From the NCBI GenBank assembly GCA_041082215.1, contig JBDOIF010000047.1, positions 1-64,000 on the forward strand: a stretch of DNA of 64,000 bases, written 5' to 3'. Positions within the stretch are counted from its first letter, which is position 1. Each line of letters opens with the position of its first letter. This document shows positions 14,101-20,100 of this stretch, one piece after another. This DNA is from Anaerolineae bacterium. GTDB lineage: Bacteria; Chloroflexota; Anaerolineae; B4-G1; DUEL01. Position numbers: made by a program.

Positions 14101-17100
14101 GGGAGGATCATCAGCACGAATGTGATGGCGGTGCAGATGGTCCCGACGACAATGATCCCCGTGGTGCTCGCAGACCACTCGGCGATTCGCAGGAAGGATT
14201 CGTTGTTGAAGACGATGCCCATGGTCTGGAGGAAGGTGGGGATGACGCTGGAAGGGATCCAGGCGATGAGGGAGCCGGCGACCATGCCGCTGAAGATCAC
14301 CAGCGTCCAGCTTGCGGCGAAAGCCAGGGGCGGGTTGAGGACGCGGCTGGCCAGGGTGTAGTCTGCGCCCGAGCGCGGCATAGCGGCACCGACATTGGCG
14401 TAGGTGTACGCATGGAACAGGCACAGGATCATCGCCACGGTGAGCACACCTATGATGCTGCTGCCAGGCCAGACGCCGGCCACCCATGAATACGGAATCA
14501 GCCCGGAGGAGGAAAGGCTGATGCAGTGGACGCCGAACACCATGGCGCCGAAGACTCCGATGGTACGGATCAACCCCGAGCTCTTACGGGCGTAGAGCTT
14601 CCGATCGCTCACGCCGGCGGTGACATCAACTCCTGCCATTTTTTACCCTCCTTCAGTTGATGCTCTGGATACGGAGTCGTCAATCTTATACCATCGTTGT
14701 CAGTGGTTGGATCGCTACACACCACCTCCTTCCCGAACCGCTACAGGTCGAATTCTGCCTGAATCCGGACGTAGTCGCCCCGCACCAGGTCACGACTATA
14801 TTGGATGGGCATTTCCTTTTCGTGGTACATGATCCGCGTGATACGCAGTAAAGGGGCGCCCGGTTCGATGCGAAGTTGTCGCGCGACTTCGTCCCGCGCG
14901 ATGTCTGCCTCCACCGTCTGCGCAATATGGGTGATGGGTAGATGGTAGCGTTGCACCAGCAGGTCGTAAATCGAAACCCTTTCCAGGTCGTATTCTTCCA
15001 GGTCCGGACAGTACCGGCATGGCACATAGGAGCTTTCGACTACCGCAGGGGTTCGGTTCGCCAGGTGAAGCTTCACTACTCGATAGAGCAGGTGACCGAT
15101 GTCAATGCGGAAAATTTCTGCAAGACGCTTGCTTGCCGGCACCTGGCTGAATTCCAGCAACTGAGAGGTATAGGCCAGCCCGCGCCGACGCATGGATTCC
15201 GCATGGTCAATCAGTTCGCGGGCATCATAAAGAACTTTGGGTTTCGCTACATAAGTGCCAGAACCATGCCGCCGTTCCAGCAAACCGTCGTTCACCAGTT
15301 CCGTGATCGCCCGACGAACAGTCATGCGGCTTACCCCTAACTCCTCGCTCAGATCGCGCTCCGAGGGCAATTTCGAGTCGGGAGCCACACGACCGGAGAA
15401 GATCAGCTCGGCCAGGTATTCCTGAATCTGCAGATACAGCGGCTTGTACAGCTCGTTGCTGCTCATGTGCGGAAATGCAGACCCTGTGTCGTTCCGCGTC
15501 TCTTTTGGCCCGCCCTTAGGAGAAGTGGTAAGTGATATAGTGGTATAAGCGTATACACTCTAACATTATAGTAAAAGTTGGGATAAAAGTCAAGTTTTCA
15601 CCAGAAAGGGCCGAATGTCGCCATATTATGTCAAAACAGAGGGTGTAAAACGCGGTGGAAACCGCGAAGTCCGCTCCATATCGGCTTATAAAGTATACCA
15701 CTTTTGAATGGCCTGTCAACCGGTTCGGCCCGTGCTATCTTGAGGTTTCGAAGGATTCCGGTATAATGTGTCCGGGGGAAGGATGAGAATGGCGCGAAAG
15801 GGATATGGCGCAGTGATCGACAGATTGCGCGCCAGATGGCAGGGGTATCGGCGGCAACGCGCCGTGGAGAGACTGAACGAGTGGTACTCCCTCTCCTGTC
15901 AAATCTGGAAAATGTGCGGGGAGGCGCTCCAGAATGAGCGGGTGGGACAGCAGGGGCCGGGGGTGATCCTGGATCAGATTGACCGCGCTCTCTTTCGACT
16001 GAGCAGTCAGCCTCCCCCGGTGGACGCTTTCCTTCGCCGACGGTTTCCCCAACTGGCCCAACGGGTGAACTCCGCCAACGAGAATGTTTACCACCTGCGT
16101 AATTATACCGCCCTCTTCCTTATCCACTGTCAGGGCCCCACGCCAGCGGAATCCACACCCTCGGAGGCGGAGTGTCTCCTCTATTACCAGCGTGCGATGG
16201 ACAGGCAGGGCGTGAAAGCCCTGGCGCTGTGGCGCGAGCTGGAAGGCCAGTTCGCGCTCATCCAGGAGGAAATGCGTCGGTTGGAGTTCTAGAGCTGGAT
16301 GAACTGCCCCTCTCTGGCGCTGGAATACCCCTGGGGGAGGCATAAGATGGACGATTTTCTGTTCCGTGGAGAGCTGGAATCGCTGGACCCGGCGGTGGCT
16401 CGCCTGATCGAACTGGAAGCGGAGCGACAGGCCCGCAAGTTGATCATGATCCCTTCCGAAAGCTATACCCCCCGCGCCGTCCGTGAGGCGCTCGGCTCCG
16501 TCTTCACCAACATCTATGCCGAGGGATACCCTCTCCCTGAGACCCGCTGGATGACCGAGGAGCAGATCCTGGATTACGAGGCCCAGATGGCCTTCTACAG
16601 GCGGTACGGCGACCTGCGCTACTATATGGGCGTTGAGTACGCCGACGTGGCCGAGGCGCTGGCCCGACGACGGTGTGCCGAGGCGTTCGCCACCGACGGT
16701 ATCCCTGCCGATCGCATCTACGTCAACGTGCAGCCGCTCTCCGGCGCACCCGCCAACACCGCTGTCTACGAAGCGCTCCTCAAACCGGGGGATACGATCC
16801 TGGGGATGGACCTGACCCACGGCGGCCACCTCACCCACGGCAGCCCGGCCAACGTCTCCGGCCAGCGGTACAACGCCGTCTTCTACCGGGTGGACCCCCG
16901 CACCGAACTCCTCGACTACGACCAGATCGAAGAGCTGGCGCTGGAGCATCGGCCTAAGGTCATCATCGCCGGCTACACCTCCTACCCCCGCGTCCCCAAC
17001 TGGGCCAAGTTCCGCCAGATCGCCGACCGGGTGGGGGCCTACCTCCTGGCCGATATCGCCCACGTGGCCGGGATGGTCATCGCCGGGGCCTATCCCACCC

Positions 17101-20100
17101 CGCTGGGGTATGCCCACGTGGTCACCTTCACCACCCACAAGACCCTCTGTGGGCCGCGCGGGGCCTGCATCCTCACCACCGACCCCCTCATCGCCCGCCG
17201 CATTGACCACGCTGTCTTCCCCGGCCTCCAGGGGGGACCCCACGTCAATAAATTCGTAGCGATGGCGGTGGCCTTCCGGCTGGCCCGCACCGAGCCCTTC
17301 CGCGCCCTCCAGCACCAGATCGTCGCCAACGCCAGGGCGCTGGCCCGTGCCCTCCAGGAGGAGGGGATGCGCATCCCCCACGGCGGCACCGACACCCACC
17401 TCCTGCTGGTGGATTGCAAGACAGTGGTCGGCCCCTTCGGCGAGCCGCTCCTGGGGGATACCGCCGCCCGCGTCCTGGACCACGTCGGCATCGTCTGTAA
17501 CCGCAACACCATTCCCGGCGATCCCACCCCGGCGCTGGCCAGCGGCATCCGCCTGGGCACCCCCTGGGTCACCCAGCGGGGCTTCCGGGAACCCCAGATG
17601 CAGGAGCTGGCCCACCTGATCGCCCACACCCTCAAGGCGATCCGCCCCTACACCTATCCGGGCCTGGGGGGGCCGGTCTACCGGGGCAAGGTGGACTTCG
17701 ACGCCCTGGAGGAGGCGAGGCTTGCGGTGGCGGAGCTAGCTTCCCGTGCAGGGGTGGATTACGAGGTCCGCTGTACCGGCTACCCCCACCACTGCCTGAT
17801 CACCGACACCCGGCCGCCGGAAGGGGATTGGGGGCTGATCGAGGTGGAGGGGAATGCGGCGGCCTCCTTCCTGGACCAGGTGCTGGTGGAGCCGGTGGGG
17901 GACCTGGAGCCGGATACGCCCCGTGCGGTGACGCTGCTGGAGGCGGATGGGCGGGTGATGGCGCAGGGGTTCCTCTTCCGGCCGGGCTTTGGCCATCAAC
18001 GCTACCGGCTGGCGGTCCCCGCCGACCGGGTGCAGCGGGTGCTGGCCTGGCTGCGCGATCTCTCCGACGGCTACGTCCTCTTCGACCCGGCCGACCTCCA
18101 GGCCAAGCTCCCGGGTCCGGTGGTGGTGCGCAACCTGGGGGCCACATCCCTTCAGGCTGGGGCGCAATCCACCGGCACCCCTTCGCTTTCCTGCAAACCC
18201 TACTACATCGGCCTCTCGGCCCATCGGGAGGGGGAGCCTCGTGGCGAGCCGCTGCCGTCCTTTACGTGGGAGCCGCAGGAGCGGCCGCTGCGCCGGACTC
18301 CCCTCTACGAGGTTCACCGGCGGCTGGGGGCGCAGATGGTCGAGTTCGGCGGATGGGAGATGCCCCTCCGCTACGGCCCGGTACTGGACGAGCACCGGGC
18401 GGTGCGGGGGGCGGCGGGGCTGTTCGACGTGGGGCATATGGGCATCTTCGAGGTCTCCGGCCCCTTTGCCGCCCCTTTCCTGGACCTGGTGACCACCAAC
18501 GACGTCAACCGGCTCCACCCGGGCCAATCCCACTACGGCTTCCTGCTCGATCCCGACGGGCGGGTGATAGACGACCTGCTGATCTACATGCGGGGGCCGG
18601 GCCGGTACATGCTGGTGGTCAACGCTGCCAACACGGAGAAGGACTGGGCGTGGCTCAACGCGGTGAACGAGGGCGCCGTTTGCATTGACCGGGGGCGACC
18701 GTGGGTGCGGCCCTCTTTCCGGGCCGAGCTGGTGGACCTGCGGGCGGAGGATCAGGAGCACAACTGGCGGGTGGACCTGGCGCTGCAGGGGCCGCGGTCG
18801 CGGGATATCCTCCTGGCCTGGCTGGCGGCCAGTCCGCAGGGGCCGGCCGCCGAAGAGATCCGGGGGCGGCTGTTGGGGATGCGGCGGACGGAGTTGATCG
18901 AAGTGGAGTGGCCCTGGCCCCAGGCCCCCGGCGGCGTCTTCGACCTGATCATCGCCCGCACCGGCTATACCGGCGAGCGGATGGGGTTTGAGATCTTTGT
19001 CCATCCGGACTGGGCGGAGTTGCTCTGGGGTCTGCTTCTGGAGCACGGGGCGGCCTTCGGGCTGCGGCCGGTGGGGCTGGCGGCGCGGGATTCGCTGCGC
19101 ATCGAGGCGGGGCTGCCCCTCTGGGGCCATGAGCTGGCCGGCCCGCTGGACCTGCGGCCCGACGATGCGGGGCTGGAGGGGTATGTGAAGTTGTACAAGC
19201 CCTTCTTCGTGGGGCGGGAGCCGTTCCGGGAGCACGCGGCAGGGCGGAAGATGGAGGTGATCCGCTTCCGGTTGGCCGAGCGGAACGTGCCGATGCCCGA
19301 TCCGGGGGATCGGGTGGTGGACCGGCGGGGGCGGGTGATCGGGCAGGTGACCTCGTGCGCGCAGGATACGGAGGGGTATCTGCTGGGGATGGCCGTTGTG
19401 GACCGGCGGTTTGCCGAACCAGGGACGGAGGTCCACCTCCTCTCAACCGCCCGCAAGCCTACCGGGAAGCCGCTGGAGGAACTGGAGGTGGGGGACCGGG
19501 TCCCGCTGGCGACGGAGGGGACGGTGCTGGAGCGGTTCCCGCGGCGGATGTAGCGCAAGATTCGCTCTTGTGCTACGGGCTTCGAAGACCCTGCCCGAAG
19601 GCTGCACTTGTTTCCCACGGGCGGCACAGTATAATGTGGGTGCGGGTGATAGGAGGGTGGGGTGAGAGAAAGCGTGCTGGATGAGATCATCGAGCGTATC
19701 GTTGAAGTGGCGCAACCGGAGCAGATCATCCTCTTCGGTTCGGCGGCGCGGGGAGAAATGGGGCCGGATAGTGACGTGGACCTGCTGGTGGTCAAATCGG
19801 ATGTGGCCCACCGGGGACGCCTGATGGAAGAGATCTACATGAATCTCTTCGGTGTGGGTCAGGCGGTGGACGTGATCGTGGTGACTCCTGAGGACATCGA
19901 ACGATACAGGGATTCCATCGCTTCGGTCATTCGGCCTGCCTTACGAGAGGGGAGGGTGGTGTATGCCCGATGAACGCTTCCCACCTGACGACCCTCGAGA
20001 ATGGTTGAACCGGGCGCGCAGCAATCTGGCCCGGGCCAGAGAAGGGGTGAGGATCCCAGGGGTTTACCTGGAGGATCTCTGCTTTGACGCTCAGCAAGCT

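What a model noticed while it worked through the whole genome (the two positions that open the first line are those of the whole stretch)
16299..19553. SHMT and glycine-cleavage T protein exist only as one fused polypeptide (two paralogues)
Serine hydroxymethyltransferase is fused through a 180-230-aa linker to the aminomethyltransferase (GcvT) in a 1,084-aa protein. A second paralogue (C155:36661-39867, 56% identical) has the same layout, and no free SHMT or GcvT gene exists in the assembly. The same holds across 41 genomes of the order, so the two enzymes that make and use 5,10-methylene-THF from glycine are physically coupled in this lineage.
Evidence so far: - Pfam SHMT at 103-441 plus GCV_T at 669-949. 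The paralogue has the same architecture. - NCBIfam SHMT and GcvT models both hit. - The PLP-Lys motif TTHKTLCGPRG is present. - tblastn finds only these two SHMT homologues. The only other GcvT-like domain is in the DAO-GCV_T protein C161:43378-45816. - All 120 of 120 listed hits are fused. - Across the order there are 73 SHMT matches in 41 genomes. 54 lie in frames of at least 950 aa, and only 1 is canonical-like. - GcvPA/PB lie at C150:26840-30826 and GcvH at C10:6860-7291.
(Added by a program. Inside this text positions count along the whole contig: contig position 1 is position 1 of the stretch shown here. "Call 12" and the like, gene names such as g00115 and contig names such as C1 are that model's own, and its searches are not shown. 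The text may have been shortened before it was handed on; [...] marks where a part breaks off. The agent that wrote the report below was given it as the finding of a first reader that could run no searches.)

Follow-up and report, generated by a model that had tools for sequence, protein, structure and literature searches.

The report
Fused SHMT and glycine-cleavage T enzyme
In this Chloroflexota bacterium and many relatives, the enzyme that interconverts serine and glycine is joined in one protein to the T component of the glycine cleavage system, offering a natural test of whether these two folate enzymes hand their shared cofactor to each other.

Summary
Window 16299-19553 (+) is one open 1,084-aa frame. 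It holds a complete SHMT domain and a complete GcvT domain, with their hallmark residues conserved. The genome has a 56%-identical paralogue on C155, and I found no free SHMT or gcvT.

- **Order:** SHMT and T matches are almost all fusion-type across 101 genomes.
- **Class:** in 93 of 151 genomes the best T-protein match is fusion-type, and 92 of those 93 keep a P-protein.
- **Wider spread:** the fusion also occurs in other Chloroflexota classes and in closed genomes.

- The "linker" is a folded remnant of a second GcvT-fold domain (T'). It is full-length in about 1,200-aa relatives.
- The SHMT N-terminus has not diverged. It carries a conserved 28-aa insertion.
- A gcvH-gcvPA-gcvPB operon without gcvT lies 7 kb downstream in the window.

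Both halves form single clades, which fits one old fusion. Natural fissions keep T' with SHMT.

The best reading is a bifunctional enzyme serving as the lineage's SHMT and T-protein. Methylene-THF hand-over is plausible but untested. Public records name only one of the two functions, and eight literature searches found no description. It is a new variant of a known kind. Interest 0.6.

The parts
16299..19553 (+). Whole ORF of the SHMT-T'-T fusion protein, 1,084 aa as called. The likely true start is the ATG at 16347 (M17), which gives 1,068 aa.
   Evidence: Searches show the open frame. Homologues start at M-x-DFLFRG. A GGGGGAGG lies 8 nt before the ATG at 16347.
16356..17639 (+). SHMT catalytic domain (residues about 20-447). 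The PLP lysine K281 is at 17139-17141.
   Evidence: Pfam and NCBIfam matches. PDB SHMTs match at E 1.2e-115. Foldseek gives TMt 0.94 to 1kkj. E54, H180, D252, H255, K281, R287 and R418 are invariant in the 37-sequence alignment.
16533..16616 (+). A 28-aa insertion (residues 79-106) between the AEGYP and RYY motifs. It is specific to the fusion-type SHMT.
   Evidence: The PDB alignment breaks into 28-78 and 107-448. The Pfam match is split in two in every fused homologue. R102 and D105 are invariant.
17640..17828 (+). Structured C-terminal extension of the SHMT domain (residues 448-510): a beta-hairpin plus a helix.
   Evidence: AF2 secondary structure with pLDDT mostly 85-94. P450, R462 and K464 are invariant.
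17829..18146 (+). T': a truncated, degenerate GcvT-fold domain (residues about 511-616). It has lost the catalytic Asp-Asp position.
   Evidence: A partial GCV_T profile match (positions 51-126) at 17838-18071, E 2.3e-6. VIA-align's top 11 hits are all GcvT-fold proteins, Z 11.8-14.6. Foldseek hits 1yx2 at E 1.6e-7. Long relatives hold a full domain here. The DD position is lost.
18147..18278 (+). Low-conservation spacer (residues 617-660). It contains the conserved KPYFIG motif that precedes the T domain.
   Evidence: Conservation is 0.37. pLDDT dips to 63. K633 is invariant. The natural split in G151 falls here.
18279..19550 (+). GcvT (aminomethyltransferase) domain, residues 661-1084. The catalytic-position Asp D759 is at 18573-18575.
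   Evidence: Pfam GCV_T at 669-949 and GCV_T_C at 990-1046. TIGR00528. PDB GcvT 1yx2 at E 5.3e-66. D758, D759, N775, N778, G889-Y890, E893, R930 and E936 are invariant.
26840..31163 (-). Glycine-cleavage operon without gcvT. It holds gcvH (30795-31163), gcvPA (29429-30826), a DUF433 gene (28694-29299) and gcvPB (26840-28390).
   Evidence: Pfam matches. The six-frame GCV_H match lies at 30807-31163.
13023..15466 (-). Divergently oriented neighbours: a GntR/UTRA regulator (14741-15466) and an amino-acid permease (13023-14639).
   Evidence: Pfam matches. A functional link to the fusion gene is not shown.

Best explanation
The gene encodes a bifunctional one-carbon enzyme. An N-terminal PLP-dependent serine hydroxymethyltransferase interconverts serine plus THF with glycine plus 5,10-methylene-THF. 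A C-terminal aminomethyltransferase acts as the T-protein of the glycine cleavage system, working with the separately encoded GcvPA/PB, GcvH and a dihydrolipoamide dehydrogenase. Between them sits a folded module: an SHMT extension plus a catalytically dead remnant of a second GcvT-fold domain (T'). This module holds the two enzymes in a defined arrangement.

The protein and its paralogue are the only SHMT and the only T-protein of this organism, so they carry the housekeeping functions. Because T makes or uses the methylene-THF that SHMT uses or makes, the fusion probably favours local hand-over of the folate. That hand-over matters most for the net reaction 2 glycine to serine + CO2 + NH3, or its reverse.

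**Shown:** the architecture, conservation of catalytic-position residues, phyletic replacement of the free genes, and a single clade for each half.

**Inferred:** both activities, use of GcvH, and any channelling.
For: 1. **Intact domains.** Both domains score as their families. The residues that align with the SHMT PLP lysine, PLP-N1 aspartate, carboxylate-binding arginine and the T-protein IDD aspartate are invariant in 37 diverse fused proteins. Assigning roles to these residues is recalled knowledge.
2. **Replacement in the class sample of 151 genomes.**
   - In 76 genomes the best SHMT and the best gcvT match are both fusion-type.
   - In 16 genomes there is a canonical glyA but only a fusion-type T.
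   - In 53 genomes both are canonical and free.
   - In 2 genomes there is a low-scoring SHMT with a canonical T.
   - In 1 genome there is T only, in 1 SHMT only, and in 2 neither.
   - The P-protein is present in 150 of 151.
   - So 92 of the 93 genomes whose best T match is fusion-type still have the rest of the system. The exception is G170.
3. **Order sample.** No canonical-like gcvT score appears in 101 genomes. The best E per genome runs from 3.2e-81 to 2.6e-41, against 1e-95 or lower for canonical genes.
4. **Closed genomes.** G113 and G216 have only the fused form.
5. **Operon links.**
   - gcvPA lies directly downstream on the same strand in several lineages: G182:C45, G104:C9, G119:C5, G184:C19, G126:C60, G223:C1.
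   - In the window, a gcvH-gcvPA-gcvPB operon that lacks gcvT lies 7 kb away.
6. **Defined assembly.** The full-length AF2 model has mean pLDDT 87.2 and pTM 0.84, and the 'linker' sits at about 90.
7. **Single origin.** Fused and split SHMT domains form one clade (SH-aLRT 98). Fused and split T domains form one clade (SH-aLRT 100).
Against: - No activity has been measured.
- The window's T domain is borderline for the NCBIfam equivalog: 244.5 or 234 bits against a cut-off of 235.85. It is below the NF001567 cut-off, 290.6 against 300.
- The T domain carries an insertion of about 45-80 residues relative to solved T-proteins.
- GCV_T_C is below the Pfam cut-off.
- gcvP or gcvH lies within 6 kb of the fusion in only 9 of 80 related loci.
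- When serine is broken down completely, both enzymes consume THF and produce methylene-THF. In that direction the fusion gives no folate hand-over.
- I could not read model coordinates or the predicted aligned error, so the distance between the two active sites is unknown.
- Sixteen class genomes keep a canonical glyA beside the fusion. The fused SHMT is therefore not always the sole one.
Confidence: 0.7

Rival explanations
1. Both domains are active, but the fusion gives no kinetic coupling. It only fixes 1:1 co-expression of two enzymes of one pathway. On this view it is a frozen accident of a glyA-gcvT operon, and T' is evolutionary debris.
For: - Split forms occur and are nested inside the fused clade, so the covalent link is dispensable.
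- T' and the spacer are the least conserved parts, 0.46 and 0.37 against 0.71 and 0.62 for the two enzymes.
- From recall of Rebeille et al. 1994, plant glycine decarboxylase and SHMT were reported to share folate through a free pool. I saw that paper only as a reference-list entry, and it is not held.
Against: - pTM is 0.84 for the whole chain and the T' region has pLDDT of about 90.
- T' has invariant or nearly invariant residues: R462, W584, D590, G591 and G606.
- T' stays with SHMT in all the fission lineages I inspected: G151, G103, G223 and G521.
- The architecture has persisted across several classes.
Confidence: 0.3
2. The C-terminal GcvT-fold domain is not the glycine-cleavage T-protein. 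It might be a folate-dependent C1 trap or demethylase-like module serving the SHMT reaction, by analogy with the GcvT-fold domains of dimethylglycine and sarcosine oxidases. T activity would then come from another protein.
For: - The equivalog score is borderline.
- GcvT-fold domains fused to other enzymes are well known. The genome's own DAO-GCV_T protein is one, and solved examples include 2gag, 4pab and 1pj5.
- gcvP and gcvH are usually not adjacent to the fusion, 9 of 80 loci.
Against: - The best solved matches of the domain are true T-proteins: 1yx2 at 5.3e-66, 1woo and 3a8i. The oxidase domains match far more weakly.
- No other T candidate exists in genomes that keep P and H.
- In several lineages the fusion occupies the gcvT position upstream of gcvPA.
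- The SHMT domain keeps its own folate-site asparagine, N401 (the role is recalled).
Confidence: 0.08
3. The two paralogues have diverged in function. One is the housekeeping enzyme. The other has a changed substrate (for example a threonine or other beta-hydroxy-amino-acid aldolase reaction) or a dedicated direction.
For: - The two copies fall in two deep subclades of the SHMT-domain tree and are only 56% identical.
- They differ by an insertion in the T domain (WPWPQAPGG) and in T score, 267.5 against 234 bits.
- Families f1 and f2 of the order mostly keep both copies, while f3 keeps one.
Against: All catalytic-position residues are invariant in both copies. I found no context difference that points to another substrate.
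Confidence: 0.15
4. The long frame is an artefact of assembly, a frameshift or gene calling.
For: None found.
Against: - The same uninterrupted frame occurs in hundreds of independent assemblies. These include single-contig genomes and a record titled as a complete genome.
- The junction region itself is conserved and is predicted to fold.
Confidence: 0.01

Closest known systems
Canonical bacterial serine hydroxymethyltransferase (GlyA; PF00464, NF000586; e.g. the Geobacillus stearothermophilus enzyme 1kkj/2vmv)
   Same: The fold matches (TMt 0.94, 48% identity). The PLP-lysine motif and all aligned catalytic-position residues are present. Scores are above the family cut-offs.
   Different: It has a conserved 28-aa insertion after AEGYP and a structured C-terminal extension. 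It is covalently joined to T' and T. It forms its own clade apart from the canonical GlyA of the same class.
Canonical glycine-cleavage T-protein (GcvT; TIGR00528; e.g. B. subtilis 1yx2, T. maritima 1woo, E. coli 3a8i)
   Same: Domain order and motifs match: IDD, VVNAAN, TGYTGE, ARDSLRxEAGLPLYGHE. The match to 1yx2 is E 5.3e-66. P and H partners are encoded in the genome.
   Different: It is fused behind SHMT-T'. It has extra residues between the N- and C-terminal halves of the folate-binding domain. Its family scores are lower (about 234-287 bits against 320-431 for free genes in the class). It forms a separate clade.
Flavin oxidase/dehydrogenase-GcvT-fold fusions (dimethylglycine oxidase 1pj5, DMGDH 4pab, sarcosine oxidase alpha 2gag) and TMAO demethylase 9q59
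   Same: A GcvT-fold folate domain is joined to the enzyme whose C1 product or substrate it handles. One such protein (DAO-GCV_T) is also present in this genome.
   Different: Here the partner is a PLP enzyme that has its own folate site. The GcvT domain resembles true T-proteins far more than the oxidase-linked domains. The internal-channel mechanism of those enzymes is recalled knowledge and was not tested here.
Functional pairing of glycine decarboxylase and SHMT in plant mitochondria (photorespiration)
   Same: It is the same pair of reactions sharing methylene-THF and THF. This is recalled knowledge; I saw Rebeille et al. 1994 only as a reference-list title.
   Different: In plants the two are separate proteins. 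Here they are one chain.
Pseudo-enzyme GcvT-fold proteins (YgfZ 1nrk, IBA57 6qe3/7z3h)
   Same: The T' module matches them structurally (Z 12.7-13.7). Like them, it lacks the T-protein catalytic aspartate (the YgfZ/IBA57 biology is recalled).
   Different: T' is a truncated internal domain of about 105-140 residues, not a free protein. It is full-length and keeps the DD position in 9 of 54 relatives.

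Membership tests
Serine hydroxymethyltransferase (PF00464 / NF000586) | Profile score above the curated cut-off | tested here: met
   Pfam 426.1 bits against 27. NF000586 445.6 against 335.
Serine hydroxymethyltransferase (PF00464 / NF000586) | PLP Schiff-base lysine in the T-T-H-K-T motif, plus the aligned Asp (PLP N1), His (ring stacking) and Arg (substrate carboxylate) | tested here: met
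   K281, D252, H180 and R418 align with the solved enzymes and are invariant in 37 sequences. The residue roles are recalled.
Serine hydroxymethyltransferase (PF00464 / NF000586) | Fold type I PLP fold of SHMT | tested here: met
   Foldseek to 1kkj: E 1.2e-40, TMt 0.94, rmsd 2.6.
Serine hydroxymethyltransferase (PF00464 / NF000586) | THF-dependent serine/glycine interconversion activity | not testable with these tools
   Needs an enzyme assay.
PRK13580-type glycine hydroxymethyltransferase (NF010094) | Equivalog score above the cut-off | tested here: not met
   320.2 bits against 735.
Glycine cleavage T-protein (TIGR00528 / NF001567 / PF01571+PF08669) | Equivalog or subfamily score above the cut-off | tested here: inconclusive
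   TIGR00528 scores 244.5 against 235.85 in hmmscan. In six-frame search it scores 234, or 239.5 with neighbours. NF001567 scores 290.6 against 300, which is not met. The paralogue scores 267.5, which is met.
Glycine cleavage T-protein (TIGR00528 / NF001567 / PF01571+PF08669) | Folate-binding GCV_T domain followed by the C-terminal barrel | tested here: met
   PF01571 scores 261.8 bits. PF08669 scores only 22.2 against 25.9. However, the alignment to 1yx2 runs to residue 346 of 365, and the AF2 model shows the beta-rich C-terminal part at pLDDT of about 90.
Glycine cleavage T-protein (TIGR00528 / NF001567 / PF01571+PF08669) | Conserved aspartate of the I-D-D motif (Asp96 in the T. maritima numbering of the alignment) | tested here: met
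   D758 and D759 are invariant. The catalytic role is recalled.
Glycine cleavage T-protein (TIGR00528 / NF001567 / PF01571+PF08669) | Partner proteins P and H encoded, and no other T candidate | tested here: met
   gcvH-gcvPA-gcvPB lie in the window. The only other GCV_T domain is in the DAO-GCV_T protein. P is present in 150 of 151 class genomes.
Glycine cleavage T-protein (TIGR00528 / NF001567 / PF01571+PF08669) | Aminomethyl transfer from lipoyl-H-protein to THF | not testable with these tools
   Needs a reconstituted assay.

The most novel reading that the evidence does not exclude
SHMT-T'-T is a natural single-chain glycine/serine interconversion machine. The dead T' domain acts as a docking scaffold that sets the T-protein folate site next to the SHMT folate site. 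One bound, probably polyglutamylated, folate then cycles between the two sites without entering the bulk pool. This coupled enzyme displaced both housekeeping genes early in Chloroflexota evolution and spread to other phyla. In the roughly 1,200-aa forms, T' is a second, possibly still active, T domain.
Probability: 0.3. Interest if true: 0.8.

Novelty: new variant of a known kind. Interest (0 to 1): 0.6.

Why it matters
- **An old question becomes testable.** SHMT and the glycine cleavage system are the two main entry points of one-carbon units into folate metabolism, and they share a cofactor pair. Whether they pass methylene-THF directly to each other has been discussed for plant mitochondria. 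It also matters for engineering the reductive glycine pathway. A natural fusion predicted to pack tightly allows a direct test: compare intact, split and T'-deleted forms.
- **Annotation.** Public records label these proteins as either 'SHMT' or 'GcvT'. Pathway reconstructions for Anaerolineae and relatives can therefore wrongly score one of the two enzymes as missing.
- **Domain evolution.** The T' remnant is a clear case of a duplicated enzyme domain decaying into a structural module.

Tried and rejected
- **Riboswitch.** A glycine riboswitch or other Rfam family upstream of the gene: none at gathering score in the whole window, only 3 tRNAs.
- **Terminators.** No terminator-like sites in 15400-20100.
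- **Upstream ORF.** The 174-aa ORF at 15768-16292 has no Pfam family. It has no homologue in any of the loci I had fetched at that point, apart from its own copies. I do not treat it as part of the system.
- **First T-domain tree.** My outgroup extraction was wrong (a spurious 1,112-aa frame) and the long T' branches left the base unresolved. I discarded it and rebuilt the tree.
- **Complex prediction.** I tested the natural split pair of G151 (T, 416 aa, with the T' part, 167 aa). The verdict was 'no answer', score 0.00 against a mark of 0.32. This is no evidence either way.
- **Gene neighbourhood as a general rule.** Only 9 of 80 related loci have gcvPA/PB within 6 kb.
- **RNA evidence.**
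  - One hot-spring metatranscriptome, held as contigs, has three short pieces of 183-361 nt at 99% identity or more on the gene.
  - The tool notes that DNA can be present in such libraries.
  - Two raw-read RNA runs laid nothing, with about 12% of each run read.
  - Transcription is therefore not shown.
- **Short homologues.** The best 120 hits of 412-595 aa are all fusion-type SHMT at 57% identity or more. Many are 'partial' and some lie on long contigs. I saw no separate free-standing ancestor-like clade.
- **Other enzymes in the own genome.** There is no SDH_alpha serine dehydratase. There is no GRDB match, but that search's controls were silent, so it says nothing.
- **Model geometry.** Coordinates and predicted aligned error could not be read, so I computed no distance between the sites.
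- **Literature.**
  - Eight full-text searches found no description of a natural SHMT-GcvT fusion.
  - I saw only the listings and the starts of abstracts, plus two passages of PMC11366715.
  - Subscription journals and supplements were not covered.

Full report
**1. The observation**

Window 16299..19553 (+) is a single open frame of 1,084 codons. The opposite strand read in the same register has stops.

Pfam results:
- SHMT at residues 103-441 (426.1 bits, two stretches).
- GCV_T at 669-949 (261.8 bits, two stretches).
- A sub-threshold GCV_T_C at 990-1046 (22.2 bits, cut-off 25.9).

NCBIfam results:
- The SHMT subfamily model scores 445.6 against 335.
- The gcvT equivalog TIGR00528 scores 244.5 against 235.85.
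- NF001567 falls just short, 290.6 against 300.

In the six-frame search the window's T domain scores 234 bits, or 239.5 with neighbours. T-protein membership by score is therefore borderline for this copy. It is clear for the paralogue, at 267.5 bits.

Against solved structures:
- The N-terminal part matches bacterial SHMTs at E 1.2e-115.
- The C-terminal 432 residues match true T-proteins, led by 1yx2 at 5.3e-66. The GcvT-fold domains of oxidases match far more weakly.

The likely start is M17, the ATG at 16347. Homologues begin M-x-DFLFRG, and a GGGGGAGG lies 8 nt upstream.

**2. Nothing free in this genome**

Six-frame Pfam searches of the 3.53-Mb, 96.13%-complete assembly gave these results.
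- SHMT occurs only in the C150 frame and in C155:36661-39867.
- GCV_T occurs only in those two frames and in C161.
- C161 is an 812-aa DAO-FAO_M-GCV_T-GCV_T_C protein of the sarcosine/dimethylglycine-oxidase type.
- The C155 paralogue has the same architecture and is 56% identical, 598 of 1070.

The window also holds, on the minus strand, gcvH (30795-31163), gcvPA (29429-30826), a DUF433 gene and gcvPB (26840-28390). This is a glycine-cleavage operon without gcvT. Two further GcvH homologues lie on C10 and C147.

**3. The 'linker' is a domain**

- The GCV_T profile also matches inside the supposed linker. It covers profile positions 51-126 at 17838-18071 (E 2.3e-6), and the paralogue matches at 6.4e-10.
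- Relatives of about 1,190-1,270 aa have a much longer middle part. It matches whole T-proteins, for example the L016 middle part against 1yx2 at E 3.1e-28 over two stretches.
- A model of residues 445-665 built on 54 sequences has mean pLDDT 88.4 and pTM 0.85.
- Its best structural matches are GcvT-fold proteins only. Foldseek finds 1yx2 at E 1.6e-7 over about 103 columns.
- With VIA-align the top 11 of 48,161 chains are all GcvT-fold, Z 11.8-14.6. They include sarcosine oxidase alpha, DMGDH, YgfZ, IBA57 and E. coli T-protein. The next hit scores Z 8.0.

The architecture is therefore SHMT, then an extension, then T' (a second GcvT-fold domain), then a spacer, then T.

At the position of the T-protein I-D-D aspartates, T' keeps DD in 9 of 54 full-length sequences. 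All nine are long forms of at least 1,099 aa. Both copies in this genome have lost it.

Majority-residue conservation is 0.71 for SHMT, 0.62 for T, 0.46 for T' and 0.37 for the spacer. T' still has invariant or nearly invariant residues: R462, W584, D590, G591 and G606.

A profile of this region finds 165 cluster representatives at E 1e-30 or lower, and 361 at 1e-10 or lower, among 1.84 billion. In every listed hit of 1,000 aa or more, the best-scoring stretch begins at residues 315-512, mostly 425-465, which places it behind an SHMT-sized N-terminal part.

**4. The SHMT N-terminus**

The profile 'starting at 52' is not divergence. Positions 1-71 match upstream. The alignment to solved SHMTs breaks between residues 78 and 107. 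That break is a 28-aa insertion found in all fused forms, with R102 and D105 invariant.

**5. Distribution**

*Order (101 genomes sampled)*
- 98 of 101 have SHMT matches.
- By my hand count of the 150 best rows listed (156 further rows were not shown), 122 lie in frames of at least 950 aa.
- 25 lie in shorter frames with the fusion-type profile start, many at contig ends.
- 3 are full-profile matches in frames of about 450 aa.
  - G077:C92 is canonical at 536.9 bits, on a 3.1-kb contig of an 82%-complete genome.
  - G037:C105 and G075:C38 are divergent, at 200.8 and 168.7 bits.
- For gcvT, 96 of 101 genomes match.
- The best E per genome runs from 3.2e-81 to 2.6e-41, so none is canonical-like.
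- The only full-profile match in a short frame is G090:C11 (376 aa, 236.4 bits).

*Class (151 genomes; cross-tabulated by best E)*
- 76 have fusion-type SHMT and fusion-type T only.
- 16 have a canonical glyA plus only a fusion-type T.
- 53 have canonical glyA plus canonical free gcvT.
- 2 have a low-scoring SHMT plus a canonical T.
- 1 has T only, 1 has SHMT only, and 2 have neither.
- The split by E-value is a proxy. For the rows listed, the frames agree with it.
- The P-protein is present in 150 of 151. The one without is G170, 88% complete.
- Single-contig genomes G113 (3.32 Mb) and G216 (4.40 Mb) have only the fused form.

*Phylum*
- The T' region finds matches in 58 of 301 genomes.
- This count includes G000 and the unpublished G466. 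Without G466 it is 57 of 300.
- Families outside the class are included, for example f72 with 16 of 17, several of them closed genomes.

*Species-representative collection*
- 599 of 600 candidate stretches encode relatives.
- The 80 kept are titled mostly Anaerolineae, Chloroflexota, Aggregatilineales (one complete genome), Ardenticatenaceae, Promineofilum, Roseilinea and Thermoflexales.
- A few are MAGs labelled Bipolaricaulota, Myxococcota (on a 2.37-Mb contig), Planctomycetia and Thermodesulfobacteriota.
- I did not test whether these are gene transfers or binning errors.

**6. Origin and fission**

- In a tree of SHMT domains, fused and split forms are one clade (SH-aLRT 98), apart from the canonical GlyA of the same class.
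- In a tree of T domains rooted on the genome's DAO-linked domain, fused and split T domains are one side of a branch (SH-aLRT 100).
- This fits one fusion event. The two copies of this genome fall in two deep subclades.

Natural split forms are nested inside the fused clade.
- G151 has SHMT-T' (606 aa) overlapping the start of a 416-aa T gene.
- G223 has SHMT-T', then T, then gcvPA.
- G103 and the closed genome G521 have SHMT-T' (586 and 646 aa) with no T gene next to it.
- In each of these lineages T' stays with SHMT.
- Some short frames on long contigs may instead be frameshift errors.

**7. What it most likely does**

Both catalytic domains look intact. The residues aligning with the SHMT PLP lysine (K281), D252, H180, R418 and E54 are invariant in 37 diverse sequences. 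So are the T-protein D758/D759, N775/N778, the TGYTGE motif and R930/E936. The roles of these residues are recalled knowledge.

Three observations make the fused T domain the working T-protein.
- The fusion-type T is the only T candidate in 93 of 151 class genomes, and 92 of those 93 retain a P-protein.
- gcvPA follows the fusion directly in several lineages: G182, G104, G119, G184, G126 and G223.
- This genome's gcv operon lacks gcvT.

Since no other SHMT was found, the fused SHMT must also be the housekeeping enzyme here.

The full-length model has mean pLDDT 87.2 and pTM 0.84, with the middle region near 90. That argues for a defined assembly rather than beads on a string. No solved structure resembles the whole chain: TMq is 0.36, and the top 50 hits are all SHMTs.

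I infer, but have not shown, that the arrangement favours hand-over of methylene-THF and THF between the two folate sites. This helps only when one domain makes what the other uses, as in 2 glycine to serine + CO2 + NH3 or the reverse. It does not help when both run in the same folate direction. The genome also has formate-THF ligase and FolD, so either direction is conceivable.

**8. Known or new**

Public sources name these proteins either 'serine hydroxymethyltransferase' or 'glycine cleavage system aminomethyltransferase GcvT', never both.

Eight full-text searches found no description of a natural SHMT-GcvT fusion. I saw only the listings and the starts of abstracts, plus passages of PMC11366715. 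Subscription journals are largely outside that library, and domain-architecture databases could not be consulted. I therefore claim only that no description was found.

It is a new variant of known kinds: two textbook enzymes plus a decayed domain copy. It is not a new kind of system.

**9. Limits**

- There are no activity data.
- Model coordinates could not be read.
- Gene adjacency to gcvP/H holds in only 9 of 80 related loci.
- RNA evidence is too thin to show transcription.
- The complex prediction for the split pair gave no answer.
- The frame counts in section 5 are hand counts from truncated lists.

Noticed in passing
L016, L029, L030, L033, L035, L094, L104, L110 (middle parts, e.g. 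L016:2031-3143): Relatives of about 1,170-1,230 aa carry a nearly complete second GcvT domain between SHMT and T. Seven of these eight keep the Asp-Asp of the catalytic position (L030 has GD), so they may have two working T domains.
   Followed up: partly
L011 (G103), L133 (G521), L012 (G151), L013 (G223): Natural split forms occur, and in each the T' remnant stays on the SHMT protein. In G103 and the closed genome G521 no T gene is adjacent.
   Followed up: partly
L080, L108, L094, L104, L110, L090, L071, L076, L085: Full-length or partial fusion genes lie on contigs of MAGs labelled Bipolaricaulota, Myxococcota (a 2.37-Mb contig), Thermodesulfobacteriota, Planctomycetia/Planctomycetota, Deltaproteobacteria, Nitrosomonadaceae and Thermotogae. 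These could be horizontal transfers or binning errors.
   Followed up: no
window 28694-29299 (-): A DUF433 gene sits between gcvPA and gcvPB and interrupts the usual gcvPA-gcvPB pair.
   Followed up: no
window 19963-20361 (+), with ORF 19662-19973 (+) just upstream: A HEPN-domain protein lies directly downstream of the fusion gene. The small ORF before it could be its nucleotidyltransferase-type partner, but I did not check this.
   Followed up: no
G000: C150:30807-31163, C10:6920-7258, C147:10172-10537: The genome has three GcvH homologues. Only one lies in the gcv operon.
   Followed up: partly
window 15740-16292 (+): A promoter-like site (TTGAGG-16-TATAAT) is followed by a 174-aa ORF that ends 6 nt before the fusion ORF. 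The ORF has no Pfam family and no homologue in the other loci I had fetched.
   Followed up: partly
L124 (G037:C105) and L125 (G075:C38): Two genomes of the order carry divergent SHMT-like proteins of about 450 aa (200.6 and 168.5 bits). One also matches Beta_elim_lyase weakly. Their function is unclear, and they lie on contigs of 8.5-8.9 kb.
   Followed up: partly
window 23129-26401 (-): A 1,090-aa protein with DUF7507, Big_1, SdrD_B and Invasin_D3 domains, probably a surface protein, lies between the fusion gene and the gcv operon.
   Followed up: no
window 32078-33031 (-) and 33049-33122 (-): A D-isomer-specific 2-hydroxyacid dehydrogenase lies upstream of gcvH, with a tRNA gene just upstream of it. 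It could be a glycerate, hydroxypyruvate or phosphoglycerate dehydrogenase linked to serine metabolism.
   Followed up: no
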